NCBI RefSeq assembly: GCF_003018115.1 | Contig: NZ_CP027457.1 | Length of the DNA: 64,000 nt | DNA from: Escherichia coli | Lineage (GTDB): Bacteria > Pseudomonadota > Gammaproteobacteria > Enterobacterales > Enterobacteriaceae | Reading direction: 5' to 3' (one strand) | In this document: piece by piece, positions 6,856 to 9,420 of the stretch | Numbering within the stretch: position 1 is the stretch's first letter | Layout of the letters: each line of letters begins with the position of its first letter | Program-made: the position numbers and the translations under genes | Notes under the pieces: model-generated | Seen by the model: the letters and a program-made list of their open reading frames with translations, nothing else | Databases searched by the model: none | What the model was told of the DNA's origin: nothing

Positions 6856-7059
6856 ATGACCAACAAAGAATCAACCAATACACCATCGCAAAAAACGAAC
6901 AGAGAGCACGAAAATATGGCGTTCGAGCATGAATCAGAAAGATTCGCACCATGCGCTTTTGTCCTTGATGAGTTTCTAAAAAAATATTCACGTTCTGAAC
7001 GGATGAAAATGGCAGCACAATACGGCCCCAACAAGCAAGATAATTGCCCACCAGCCTGA
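6856..7059 (+). CDS. Hypothetical small protein (67 aa), partner of RHH module 2
   Basis: ORF track; paralog of ORF 6178..6405. Confidence 0.5.
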   Translation: MTNKESTNTPSQKTNREHENMAFEHESERFAPCAFVLDEFLKKYSRSERMKMAAQYGPNKQDNCPPA

Positions 7060-7129
7060 TCGCGGTTATCATGCCCGGGCTTATGATTGTTGACACATAC
7101 GGCGCAGCGGGTTAATTGTTCAGAAAGGT

Positions 7130-7155
7130 GGCTCCATTTCGGGGCCGCTTTTTTT
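7130..7155 (+). terminator. Rho-independent terminator after the RHH modules
   Basis: Stem GGCTCC / GGGGCC (one G-T wobble) followed by GCTTTTTTT. Confidence 0.45.
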
Positions 7156-7180
7156 ATGTTCATCATTTGCCCTATATATG

Positions 7181-7387
7181 TTAAGCGGTCGTTCCGCGCG
7201 CTTCTTGTTCGCGTTCTTTCATCCATGCGATTACGTCTTCCTCATACCATCCGCGACGGCGCAAACCGACACGAAAACCCTGCGGGAATTCTCCGGCGTT
7301 GATCATGCTTTGCAGCGTGCTGTCTGCCTTAATGTGGATAAGTTTTTTTACTTCCTGGCGAAAGATGACTTTTTTGATTGCTTCCAT
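7181..7387 (-). CDS. alpA: AlpA-family phage transcriptional regulator (68 aa)
   Basis: ORF track; sequence ...STLQSMINAGEFPQGFRVGLRRRGWYEEDVIAWMKERE typical of AlpA/CP4-57-type regulators; GAGG SD. Confidence 0.8.
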   Translation of the reverse strand: MEAIKKVIFRQEVKKLIHIKADSTLQSMINAGEFPQGFRVGLRRRGWYEEDVIAWMKEREQEARGTTA

Positions 7388-7463
7388 CGTGATTTACCTC
7401 ATTAATCCGGTGTATTCCGGTGAGAAATACGGTAAATCATCGGATGCAGGGAAAAACAGTACT

Positions 7464-7493
7464 CACCGTTTTTAAACGGTATACACCGTTTTT
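7464..7493. promoter_or_regulatory. Direct repeats CACCGTTTTT (x2) with embedded palindrome ACCGTTTTTAAACGGT upstream of alpA
   Basis: Read directly from sequence in the alpA promoter region. Confidence 0.4.
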
Positions 7494-7520
7494 TATATTG
7501 ATGATTTGAAAGGGATTTAT

Positions 7521-7543
7521 AAAAAAAGCGGCATTTCTGCCGC
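7521..7543 (-). terminator. Rho-independent terminator after ORF 7555..7806
   Basis: Hairpin GCGGCAGAAATGCCGC followed by TTTTTTT on minus strand. Confidence 0.6.
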
Positions 7544-7554
7544 TTTCAGGATTG

Positions 7555-7806
7555 TTACCGCCATTTTTTTGGCCTGCCTCCGGTCTTCATGGATGCCGGA
7601 CGTACAACCTTATCAATACTTACAGCCAGATTTCTGGAAGCCCCACGGGATACCAGGAAATCTACTACCTGTTTTTTTGATGGGGCCGTCGTTCTGTCCT
7701 CCGGATCGTAGGTTGACCAAAATTCATGCTGAACCATCAGGGCCAGTTGCAGCCCGTCGCAATTGCATCTGAAATTTGTTTGCATCTTAACAGTTTCATT
7801 TTTCAA
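7555..7806 (-). CDS. Hypothetical protein (83 aa) between integrase and alpA
   Basis: ORF track; own terminator downstream. Confidence 0.5.
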   Translation of the reverse strand: MKNETVKMQTNFRCNCDGLQLALMVQHEFWSTYDPEDRTTAPSKKQVVDFLVSRGASRNLAVSIDKVVRPASMKTGGRPKKWR

Positions 7807-7883
7807 GGCCTCGTCGTTAAATGTGATGCAATTATACGACGGTTTTAAATGGTTTTCGTAGTTTTTACTGGTTTTCTGTACAG

Positions 7884-9125
7884 CTAAACGGCTCGGATAC
7901 CCCTTTTACCACTGGCGAGGGTTACGCCCGTCGCCGCAGCCTCGACAAATTCGCCCCACCAGCGCATAAGCACGATGCGTTTTTCTATGTAGTTGCTCCG
8001 GTTGTATGCCCGTCTGACTTCGTTGGTGTCGACGTGGGCAAGTGCGGCCTCTATTACGTCCGGCTCAAAGCCTTCTTCGTTCGCTGCTGTGCTGAATATG
8101 GCGCGTAATCCATGAGACACCAGCACGCCAGCGAATCCCATGCGTCGTAATGCTGCGTTAGCGGTCTGGCTGTTCATCGGCTGCTGTGGGTCTTTCAGAC
8201 TCGGGAAAACATAATCGCGGTGGTGGCTGATTGGTTTCATAGCCTCCAGCACTGCCATAGCCTGGTCACAAAGCGGGATAACGTGGTCGCGGCGCATCTT
8301 CATGCGTCCGGCGGGTATGGTCCAGCGTTGCGCTTCCATGTCGATTTCTTCCCAGCGTGCCGACGATGCTTCAACGGGACGGGTTACGGTCAGTAACTGC
8401 CATTCAATCAGTAATCTGGTCTGCCGTTCTGTTGCCGATACTGATAAAGCCTGCATAAGCTCCGGCAGCTGTTCGGGGCGGATTGTTGGCATATGTTTTT
8501 TTACAGGGGAGGGGAACGCCTTACGCACATTCATAGCCGGATTGGCATCAATCATCCCACTATTGGCGGCGTAATCCATTACCTCATTTATACGCTGTAA
8601 AACTCGCTTGAGCGTTTCCAGGTTGCCACGTTCCTTGATGGGGGTAAGCACCTCAACGAACCTGCGAGCGGTCAGGGTGTCTATTGGCGTGTTGCCGATG
8701 AACGGGAATACATATTTTTCCAGCGATCGCCAGATGTCTTTAATCGTATTGGGGGCCAGATTCTGGCTGATTTTCACCTGGTACCATGCTGTTGCCACAT
8801 TTTCGAACGTGTTCCCTTGTCTTCGGGCCTCTGTCTCTCTTTTTTGCCTCTCGTGGTCCTGCGGGTCAGTTCCGGCACGAATTAACGCCCTGTACTCGCT
8901 ACGGCGTTTTCTGGCATCAGCCAGGGAAACATCATCAAGCGATCCAAAACTCAGCAATATTCTTTTTTTGTCCGATGGTCGGTAGTAGGAAAATCTCCAG
9001 AGTTTTGATCCGGACGGTTTGATCAGGAGAAAAAGCCCTCCGCCGTCCTGTAGGGTGTATTCCTTTTCTGCTGGTCTGGCTGCTTTGATCTGTACTGTGG
9101 TTAATGGGGGTGTTTTTCTCGCCAT
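7884..9125 (-). CDS. int: P4-type tyrosine site-specific integrase (413 aa)
   Basis: ORF track; N-terminal ...LWRFSYYRP... region and C-terminal catalytic region (...HGLRAIFST..., ...RAYNRSNYIEKR...) typical of tRNA-targeting integrases. Confidence 0.9.
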   Translation of the reverse strand: MARKTPPLTTVQIKAARPAEKEYTLQDGGGLFLLIKPSGSKLWRFSYYRPSDKKRILLSFGSLDDVSLADARKRRSEYRALIRAGTDPQDHERQKRETEARRQGNTFENVATAWYQVKISQNLAPNTIKDIWRSLEKYVFPFIGNTPIDTLTARRFVEVLTPIKERGNLETLKRVLQRINEVMDYAANSGMIDANPAMNVRKAFPSPVKKHMPTIRPEQLPELMQALSVSATERQTRLLIEWQLLTVTRPVEASSARWEEIDMEAQRWTIPAGRMKMRRDHVIPLCDQAMAVLEAMKPISHHRDYVFPSLKDPQQPMNSQTANAALRRMGFAGVLVSHGLRAIFSTAANEEGFEPDVIEAALAHVDTNEVRRAYNRSNYIEKRIVLMRWWGEFVEAAATGVTLASGKRGIRAV

Positions 9126-9158
9126 ATGCTTATGATTCCAAACGAAAAAACAGGGTTT

Positions 9159-9210
9159 TAGTTATACGGCTTTAGTTATACGTCAGCCCGTATAACTAAA
9201 CGTATAACTA
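9159..9210. repeat. Two direct TAGTTATACG repeats followed by two inverted CGTATAACTA copies between int and tRNA-Pro
   Basis: Read directly from sequence; candidate integrase arm-type sites or int promoter operator. Confidence 0.6.
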
Positions 9211-9263
9211 AAAAATCCGGCTGATAGCTTATAAATCCGGTGATGTTCGGTGACTAAAAACCA

Positions 9264-9294: not shown

Positions 9295-9343
9295 GCTATC
9301 CCTGTCTTATTCGATGATTTCCGGTGGTATCCGGTGGGCGATT

Positions 9344-9420
9344 TGGTCGGCACGAGAGGATTTGAACCTCCGACCCCCGACACCCCATGACGGTGCGCTA
9401 CCAGGCTGCGCTACGTGCCG
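9344..9420 (-). tRNA. proL: tRNA-Pro (anticodon GGG)
   Basis: 77-nt sequence CGGCACGTAGCGCAGCCTGGTAGCGCACCGTCATGGGGTGTCGGGGGTCGGAGGTTCAAATCCTCTCGTGCCGACCA on minus strand. Confidence 0.95.

What the first reader, a model, noticed from the sequence alone, without database searches (positions are those of the whole stretch)
7555..7806. Stand-alone 83-aa gene with its own terminator between int and alpA
This position in tRNA-integrated elements is a frequent cargo or recombination-directionality slot. The protein has no obvious motif; it could be an excisionase-like factor or an accessory gene.
Basis: inference. Interest (0 to 1): 0.35.

Follow-up and report, generated by a model that had tools for sequence, protein, structure and literature searches.

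The report
Conserved small gene between int and alpA
The small gene is real and belongs to an unnamed protein family that sits between the integrase and the AlpA master regulator of phage-satellite islands in many Gammaproteobacteria, so it is probably part of the island's control module rather than cargo, but its function is untested.

Summary
The ORF, its position and its terminator are real. The island is a PICI-type phage satellite inserted at tRNA-Pro(GGG), next to yejM. The gene is under purifying selection (dN/dS 0.04-0.22, against >1 in shifted frames). Its likely start is the conserved ATG at 7785 (76 aa), not the TTG at 7806 (83 aa). It has an invariant TATAAT upstream and a hairpin-plus-U terminator kept by compensatory stem changes.

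Pfam, NCBIfam, PHROGs and PADLOC do not match it. A profile search of 1.84 billion proteins shows it is the stand-alone C-terminal domain of mostly 170-290 aa hypothetical proteins. In 70+ loci from several Gammaproteobacteria these lie between a P4-type integrase and an AlpA gene. Cargo, such as a type III R-M system, inserts between int and this gene. Only one locus family (L006-L008) has another gene between it and the next HTH gene.

The model is a three-helix, HTH-like bundle with a basic GGRPKK tail. My best guess (about 0.4) is a DNA-binding or partner protein that modulates the alpA switch. It is not an AlpA/Xis homologue. The characterised PICIs EcCICFT073 and EcCIMP1 lack it.

The parts
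7555..7785 (-). orf76: 76-aa basic protein (13 K/R and 7 D/E, net +6). It is a stand-alone copy of the 'FWSTYDP...TAP...LRP...GGRPKK' C-terminal domain. The 83-aa reading from the TTG at 7806 is mechanically possible but not conserved.
   Evidence: family membership
7831..7836 (-). TATAAT -10-like hexamer about 45 nt upstream of the ATG. It is invariant in all five divergent variants aligned, the -35 is weak, and it sits in a conserved block right after the int stop codon.
   Evidence: read from alignment A4. The consensus scan did not call it, so promoter activity is inferred.
7518..7546 (-). Intrinsic terminator of orf76 (9-bp stem, GAAA loop, U7). It insulates alpA from int/orf76 transcription.
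7454..7493 (.). Two tandem 20-bp imperfect palindromes (AAACGGT-N4-ACCGTTT type), 84-104 nt upstream of the alpA ATG and conserved among variants. Candidate operator for a dimeric regulator; which protein binds is unknown.
   Evidence: (D1, I2, I7, I9)
7405..7422 (-). Two CACCGGAW repeats 10 bp apart, just upstream of the alpA Shine-Dalgarno sequence. The same motif recurs at 9235-9242 and at 9319-9336 (10-bp phased) in attL.
7181..7387 (-). alpA-like HTH regulator/excisionase gene (68 aa)
   Evidence: Phage_AlpA E=0.003, below the cut-off; phrog_66 and phrog_2790, 1e-7
7884..9125 (-). P4-type tyrosine integrase (Arm-DNA-bind_3 + Phage_int_M + Phage_integrase)
9344..9420 (-). tRNA-Pro(GGG), the integration target (attL side)
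2957..4366 (-). RepA-type helicase of the satellite replication module. It shows the island is PICI-like, and the island runs off the left end of the window.

Best explanation
Shown: orf76 is a real, monocistronic gene of a PICI-type phage satellite integrated at tRNA-Pro. It encodes a 76-aa basic protein. This protein is the stand-alone C-terminal domain of an unannotated two-domain family (typically 170-290 aa). Family members lie between a P4-type integrase gene and an AlpA/HTH_17 gene in 70+ loci examined from several Gammaproteobacteria. Inferred: the protein is a small DNA-binding or partner protein of the alpA control region. It would be expressed from its own constitutive-looking promoter while the island is integrated. 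Its terminator would keep that transcription out of alpA. It would act as a modulator, most likely a brake, of the self-activating alpA switch that starts the satellite cycle when a helper phage appears. It could do this either by binding the conserved operators between its terminator and alpA, or by binding AlpA itself. It is not cargo, and it is not a homologue of AlpA/Xis excisionases.
Confidence: 0.4

Rival explanations
1. It is an integrase accessory or recombination-directionality factor. This small basic protein would bind the att arms and bend DNA, helping or biasing this particular Int clade towards integration or excision. It would resemble P2 Cox or 186 Apl, which bind both a promoter and att.
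For: It lies directly downstream of int and is co-oriented with it in most loci. It is confined to int-alpA modules with Arm-DNA-bind_3 integrases and is swapped together with int between otherwise identical PICIs. It is basic with an AT-hook-like tail. CACCGGAW repeats are shared by attL and the alpA leader.
Against: It has no homology to the Xis/AlpA/Cox families. AlpA, the usual directionality factor for P4-type integrases, is already present. Cargo separates the gene from int in several relatives, whereas only one locus family separates it from the next HTH gene. A constitutive-looking promoter is unexpected for an excision factor.
Confidence: 0.2
2. It is a protein-protein adaptor or sensor domain with no DNA binding. 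The conserved domain would dock onto AlpA, Int, RNA polymerase or a helper-phage protein. In the long forms it would be tethered to an N-terminal domain; in E. coli it would act alone, for example as an anti-activator or decoy.
For: It is a domain that recurs at the C-terminus of varied N-terminal regions. The fold has no strong DNA-binding homologue. The first 10 residues are hypervariable while the core is invariant.
Against: The net charge of +6 and the Gly-Arg-Pro basic tail are more typical of nucleic-acid binders. No partner has been identified.
Confidence: 0.15
3. It is a moron-like accessory gene: an autonomously expressed small protein that benefits the host or blocks competitors, for example by superinfection exclusion, and is unrelated to the island's own cycle.
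Against: It is present in intact elements carrying this int across E. coli. It keeps the same position across genera and with different cargo. It co-diverges with int and alpA. It has no PADLOC match and is absent from 50,697 phage records.
Confidence: 0.15
4. It is a decaying remnant of the long-form gene, still open by chance and without function.
For: It lacks the N-terminal domain. Frameshifted or truncated copies exist (L074; P0013, P0030).
Against: It is under strong purifying selection with saturated dS between variant groups. The start, promoter and terminator are conserved. The exact protein is seen on at least 1000 contigs.
Confidence: 0.05

Closest known systems
AlpA / P4 Vis family (Pfam Phage_AlpA, HTH_17): small regulators and excisionases next to P4-type integrases
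   Same: It is a small basic protein encoded beside a P4-type int in a tRNA-integrated satellite, and it is plausibly DNA-binding.
   Different: There is no sequence or profile relationship. A true AlpA homologue sits immediately downstream. The predicted fold is a three-helix bundle without the wing.
SaPI Stl / Gram-positive PICI Rpr master repressors
   Same: The gene lies between int and the gene that launches the satellite cycle. The long forms have a comparable size (about 230-245 aa) and a two-domain build. Its expression unit looks independent of induction.
   Different: It is co-directional rather than divergent. No homology was detected by the family libraries. The E. coli form is one domain only. 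No interaction with a helper protein is known.
LuxR-family regulator between int and alpA in PIME1 integrative mobilizable elements (bioRxiv 10.64898/2026.01.12.698999)
   Same: It is a second regulator gene in the int-alpA regulatory region. In PIME1 that regulator is required for excision and replication, a precedent for a two-regulator module.
   Different: PIME1 luxR is divergent from alpA and belongs to a known family. orf76 is co-directional and belongs to an unnamed family. The elements are conjugation-dependent, not phage-dependent.
P2 Cox / 186 Apl dual-function proteins
   Same: If orf76 binds the repeats shared by attL and the alpA leader, it would work in the same way: one small protein acting at both a promoter and att.
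   Different: There is no homology. The binding is only a hypothesis, and AlpA is an equally good candidate for those repeats.
Three-helix HTH-like domains (RecX repeats, IclR-type wHTH, ColE2 Rep DNA-binding domain)
   Different: The scores are in the range of generic small helical bundles, and Foldseek found nothing significant in PDB or BFVD.

Membership tests
Unnamed 'FWSTYDP' C-terminal domain family (defined here) | Sequence signature hhh-FW-S/x-T/x-YDP-x-D-x-x-TAP-x(4)-V-x-x-(F/W/Y)L-x(3)-G-x-S-x-N-x-A-x-x-ID-x-x-LRP followed by a short basic Gly/Pro tail | tested here: met
   Profile hits down to E=1e-27 for short proteins and 1e-19 to 1e-6 for long ones; alignments A1 and A2
Unnamed 'FWSTYDP' C-terminal domain family (defined here) | The domain is the extreme C-terminus of a 170-290 aa two-domain protein | tested here: not met
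   The E. coli protein is the domain alone. Only 78-117 nt separate the int stop from its start, so there is no room for an N-terminal domain. It is a truncated variant of the family.
Unnamed 'FWSTYDP' C-terminal domain family (defined here) | Encoded downstream of a P4-type integrase and immediately upstream of an AlpA/HTH_17 gene, on the same strand | tested here: met
AlpA / Xis-type excisionase (HTH_17, Phage_AlpA) | Winged-helix HTH_17/AlpA domain detectable by profile | tested here: not met
   No Pfam, PHROG or NCBIfam hit; hhalign A2 against an AlpA alignment gave 2.8% probability
AlpA / Xis-type excisionase (HTH_17, Phage_AlpA) | Stimulates Int-mediated excision and binds att arm sites | not testable with these tools
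   Needs excision assays and footprinting
AT-hook DNA-binding motif | R-G-R-P core flanked by basic residues | tested here: inconclusive
   The window protein has K-T-G-G-R-P-K-K-W-R, i.e. GRP with basic flanks but no first Arg. Exact GRP occurs in 31 of 140 family members and looser G-(R/K/P)-basic in 111 of 140; a few have RGRP or KGRPRK.
Gram-negative PICI (the island as a whole) | int + alpA + pri/rep, co-directional, about 8-15 kb, own att site, morphogenesis or packaging-interference genes | tested here: met
   int, alpA and RepA helicase in the window. Relatives carry PerC, a prohead protease/capsid fusion or capsid + decoration + small terminase. IMG/VR contigs are mostly 7-14 kb. Genes downstream of alpA in Nissle are identical to those of EcCICFT073.
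Gram-negative PICI (the island as a whole) | Induced and mobilised by a helper phage | not testable with these tools
   Shown for EcCICFT073 and EcCIEDL933 in the literature, not for this element
Moron / cargo gene | Own promoter and terminator | tested here: met
   (the promoter is by sequence only)
Moron / cargo gene | Variable presence among otherwise syntenic elements | tested here: not met
   It is present in the intact int-alpA modules of this type that were inspected. The one inspected case without it is IS1-disrupted (L018). 440 genomes carry this int at >=80% coverage against 363 with detectable orf76 DNA, and the difference was only sampled. It co-diverges with int and alpA.
Known anti-phage defence proteins (PADLOC) | Match to a defence-system model | tested here: not met
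Ankyrin repeat proteins | Tandem 33-residue repeats | tested here: not met
   The PDB and library hits to designed and natural ankyrin proteins are sums of weak matches of one short stretch (EVVxFLxSRGA). Each stretch alone is non-significant.

The most novel reading that the evidence does not exclude
The family, in its long two-domain form, is the missing gatekeeper of a large class of Gram-negative phage satellites. It would be a repressor or anti-activator encoded just upstream of alpA that holds the self-activating alpA switch off and is neutralised by a helper-phage protein, a functional analogue of SaPI Stl. The E. coli proL elements would keep only its effector domain.
Probability: 0.15. 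Interest if true: 0.75.

Novelty: new variant of a known kind. Interest (0 to 1): 0.42.

Why it matters
It is still unknown how helper phages switch on alpA in Gram-negative PICIs. The 2018 description states that no master repressor has been identified and that the inducer is unknown (PMC6092414). A conserved, unannotated gene that stays next to alpA across genera, even when cargo is inserted beside it, is a concrete candidate for part of that control. It is also present in easily handled strains (Nissle 1917, ATCC 25922). Two practical points follow. Satellite-detection schemes that use int + alpA + pri could add this family as a marker of one module type. The int-to-X junction can be treated as a defence-gene insertion hotspot. 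If the gene turns out to be dispensable, the result still corrects several start-codon and length miscalls in public annotation.

Tried and rejected
- Family libraries: Pfam, NCBIfam, PHROGs and PADLOC gave nothing for the protein, for 10-20 long-form relatives, or for either domain alignment.
- PDB sequence profiles: only ankyrin-consensus artefacts and noise.
- tblastn against 50,697 phage records: no match.
- hhalign of the N-terminal or C-terminal domain against AlpA: unrelated. I therefore dropped my idea that the long-form N-terminus is an excisionase-type wHTH.
- EcCIMP1_002, the published gene in the same slot that was once mis-annotated as UvrB: no ORF in that gap resembles orf76.
- My first allele-type correlation used ungapped tails and single linkage and was misleading. 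I replaced it with a sliding-window identity profile.
- Search for an operator motif shared by E. coli and long-form loci: only a loose AAAC(A/G)GTG resemblance in Serratia, otherwise heterogeneous.
- The AACGGTG pair at 230/266 lies inside a coding region and is probably chance.

Full report
**Setting.** The window is E. coli chromosome. A tRNA-Pro(GGG) gene lies at 9344-9420 on the minus strand, next to yejM. From it, an island runs leftward on the minus strand:
- a P4-type integrase at 7884-9125 (Arm-DNA-bind_3, Phage_int_M and Phage_integrase);
- the ORF in question at 7555-7806;
- an AlpA-like HTH gene at 7181-7387 (Pfam AlpA E=0.003; PHROG 'excisionase and transcriptional regulator' 1e-7);
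- small genes, a DUF4222 gene, a RepA-type helicase (2957-4366) and PerC.

Close relatives in complete genomes show that this is a PICI-type phage satellite of roughly 9-13 kb.
- Strain 95-3322 has a ClpP-like prohead protease/capsid fusion.
- Nissle 1917 has capsid, decoration and small-terminase genes.
- Several Nissle proteins downstream of alpA are identical to those of the prototype PICI EcCICFT073.
- IMG/VR holds dozens of these elements as mostly 7-14 kb contigs, most starting at int.

The window cuts the island at its left end.

- The ORF exists as described.
- Its DNA is found in 363 of 5426 complete E. coli genomes. Every locus inspected except one is at proL; the exception is a second copy near rclB.
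- Between variant groups, dN/dS in the annotated frame is 0.04-0.22, with saturated dS for the most distant pairs. The two shifted frames give 1.2-2.9.
- The hairpin AAAGCGGCA-GAAA-UGCCGCUUU plus U7 (7518-7546) folds at about -15 kcal/mol.
- Stem-loops follow the stop codon in most distant relatives folded, and a clear hairpin-plus-U terminator lies about 50 nt downstream in L075.

**The start codon needs correcting.** The TTG at 7806 is replaced by GTG, GAC or GGA in relatives. The ATG at 7785 is conserved as the in-frame start in four of the five aligned variants, all 11 protein clusters begin there, and RefSeq aa.

A TATAAT hexamer at 7831-7836 is invariant in all five aligned variants. It sits in a conserved block directly after the int stop codon. 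Its promoter activity is inferred, not shown.

**What is the protein?** No curated library recognises it. A word-indexed search found only 11 E. coli clusters. Exact-sequence look-ups add Escherichia albertii and Shigella dysenteriae to the close short forms, and Salmonella and Xenorhabdus among more distant relatives; all are 'hypothetical'.

An exhaustive profile search of 1.84 billion representatives changed the picture.
- It gave 469 hits at E<=1e-3.
- Seven of the listed best 150 are ankyrin-repeat false positives, caused by one short ankyrin-consensus-like stretch.
- In most of the remaining listed hits (120 of about 140), the matched region is the last 60-70 residues of proteins of more than 110 aa, mostly 170-290 aa. 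The median is 2 residues after the domain end.
- 99 of 122 N-terminal regions are linked in one family, with the motif 'HW..V.EFT.EQAALLLAGIDP'.
- Neither domain has a Pfam, NCBIfam or PDB relative.
- Named members come from Edwardsiella, Halomonas/Billgrantia, Oceanospirillaceae, Pontibacterium, Serratia, Sedimenticola and Salmonella.
- The Salmonella '83-aa' protein is a mis-called 233-aa long form.

So the E. coli gene is a C-terminal-domain-only derivative. Only 78-117 nt separate the int stop from its start.

**Context is the strongest evidence.** I examined 12 diverse loci and 58 IMG/VR loci.
- The gene is co-oriented with a P4-type integrase upstream wherever upstream sequence is available, with int up to about 1 kb away in the loci and about 7 kb away in L082.
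- An AlpA/HTH_17 gene lies 30-250 bp downstream.
- The following genes are satellite-type: Bro-N/AntA, then Toprim/DUF927, DUF5906 or GPA replication proteins.
- Insertions occur between int and the gene: small ORFs in L075 and L079, a second recombinase in L083/L084, and a 7-kb block with a type III restriction-modification system in L082.
- Only one locus family (L006-L008) has a small ORF between the gene and the next HTH gene.
- Within E. coli, int, orf76 and alpA diverge evenly (60-85% identity between variant groups), while similarity collapses beyond alpA.
- Nissle and CFT073 share identical downstream genes but carry different int-(orf76)-alpA and int-alpA modules.

So the gene is part of a swappable left-end control module and is tied more closely to alpA than to int.

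**Candidate targets in cis.** Between the terminator and alpA lie two tandem 20-bp imperfect palindromes of the AAACGGT-N4-ACCGTTT type (7454-7493). They are conserved across variants. Two CACCGGAW repeats 10 bp apart lie at 7405-7422, just before the alpA Shine-Dalgarno sequence. The same motif, with the same 10-bp phasing, recurs in attL at 9319-9336 and again at 9235-9242. It occurs 11 times in the window against 3.9 expected, with 5 of the 11 in these two spots. Two kinds of site and two small putative DNA-binding proteins (AlpA and orf76) invite a one-to-one assignment, but the data do not say which way round. AlpA, a Vis/Xis-type protein, is a natural candidate for the direct repeats shared with attL.

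[quoted passage not shown] No repressor or inducer has been identified (PMC6092414). I propose the following.
- orf76 is expressed from its own promoter while the island is integrated.
- Its terminator stops int/orf76 transcription from reaching alpA.
- The protein modulates the alpA switch, most likely as a brake. It would do so by binding the operators upstream of alpA or by binding AlpA.

The gene, its unit structure, the family and the synteny are shown. DNA binding, the target and the sign of regulation are inferred. Confidence is about 0.4.

**Weighing against this.**
- EcCICFT073 and EcCIMP1, both experimentally inducible, have no homologue anywhere in the sequence examined. The family therefore serves one class of int-alpA modules, not all PICIs.
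- The E. coli form lacks the N-terminal domain.
- Divergent Arc-like genes downstream of alpA are alternative repressor candidates.

**Rivals.**
- An Int cofactor or directionality factor of the Cox/Apl kind (0.2).
- A pure protein-protein adaptor (0.15).
- A moron-like accessory gene (0.15).
- A decaying remnant (0.05; contradicted by selection).

**Comparison with known systems.** The gene works in the same genomic niche as AlpA/Vis, SaPI Stl and the LuxR regulator of PIME1 elements. That LuxR gene also lies in the regulatory region beside alpA and is required for excision. orf76 is not a member of any of those families.

**Novelty and verdict.** The element type is known, and RefSeq already annotates the gene as hypothetical. 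What is new is the recognition of an unnamed two-domain family as a conserved third component of one class of int-alpA modules, with the E. coli gene as its truncated form. I rate this a new variant of a known kind, with moderate interest (0.42). It would rise substantially if the family proves to gate alpA.

Noticed in passing
window 7737-7812 (minus strand); L002-L005, L019, L020, L022-L074: The only Shine-Dalgarno-like element (GAGG, 7809-7812) sits 9 nt before an ATG at 7799 in the +1 frame, not before the orf76 ATG at 7785. That uORF (20 codons) ends in TGA overlapping the in-frame Met17 codon of orf76 (cTGATGg, ATG at 7737). All 20 distinct upstream variants in 60 loci have an out-of-frame uORF ending TGATG or TAATG on that same Met. 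Substitutions in codons 11-16 are all synonymous in the orf76 frame (A4), so the long product is still selected. This could be translational coupling, a second 60-aa isoform, or coincidence.
   Followed up: partly
window 7454-7493: Two tandem 20-bp imperfect palindromes (AAACGGT-N4-ACCGTTT type) lie upstream of alpA and are conserved among divergent variants. They look like operators for a dimeric regulator.
   Followed up: partly
window 7405-7422, 9235-9242, 9319-9336: CACCGGAW repeats with 10-bp phasing occur both next to the tRNA/att core and just upstream of the alpA ribosome-binding site. They are conserved as CCGGAWT in all variants, the pattern expected for a directionality factor that also regulates a promoter.
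   Followed up: partly
window about 9158-9210 (between the tRNA and the int start): There are four copies of AGTTATACG, two direct and two inverted, about 30-80 nt upstream of the int ATG. They are probably Int arm-type sites overlapping the int promoter.
   Followed up: no
L082 1461-8425; L083 1718-2854: In distant relatives, cargo is inserted between int and the orf76-family gene: a type III restriction-modification system plus two small genes (7 kb), or a second tyrosine recombinase. This marks the junction as an insertion hotspot.
   Followed up: partly
L013 4551-5252; L005 5946-6200; L019: There are public gene-call errors in this family. The Salmonella '83-aa' protein (P0027) is really a 233-aa long form. 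The 61-aa RefSeq call WP_141219638.1 in C5-type variants probably misses an in-frame GTG start with an AAGGAG Shine-Dalgarno sequence (80 aa).
   Followed up: partly
L020 (E. coli TW08637, near rclB): A second copy of the same island, with identical int and orf76 proteins to Nissle, is integrated away from proL next to rclB. This implies a secondary attachment site.
   Followed up: no
window 5932-7059 (+ strand); L001 8220-8660: Small genes lie on the opposite strand just downstream of alpA. One is Arc-like / 'YlcI/YnfO family' (6625-6798). The window has about 880 bp more here than strain 95-3322, with a second pair of small ORFs (5932-6405). These are possible repressor candidates for the satellite. 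The 496-aa minus-strand ORF 5736-7226 spanning them is probably a mechanical artefact.
   Followed up: partly
L001 2077-2173 and 4614-4710: A 97-nt direct repeat (88% identical) ends in a GC-rich hairpin. One copy follows the protease/capsid fusion gene and the other precedes PerC in the 95-3322 island. The island's only capsid gene is a ClpP-like prohead protease/major capsid fusion.
   Followed up: no
window 7471-7499 (+ strand): A promoter-like site (TTTAAA-17-TATATT) lies inside the palindromes and points antisense into the orf76 terminator and gene. Only two such sites were found in the region, about the number expected by chance.
   Followed up: no
L081 6161-6525 (EcCICFT073 int-alpA gap): The prototype PICI has no gene in this slot. 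Instead it has a run of ACAACG/ACAAC repeats, likely protein-binding sites of its different int-alpA module.
   Followed up: no
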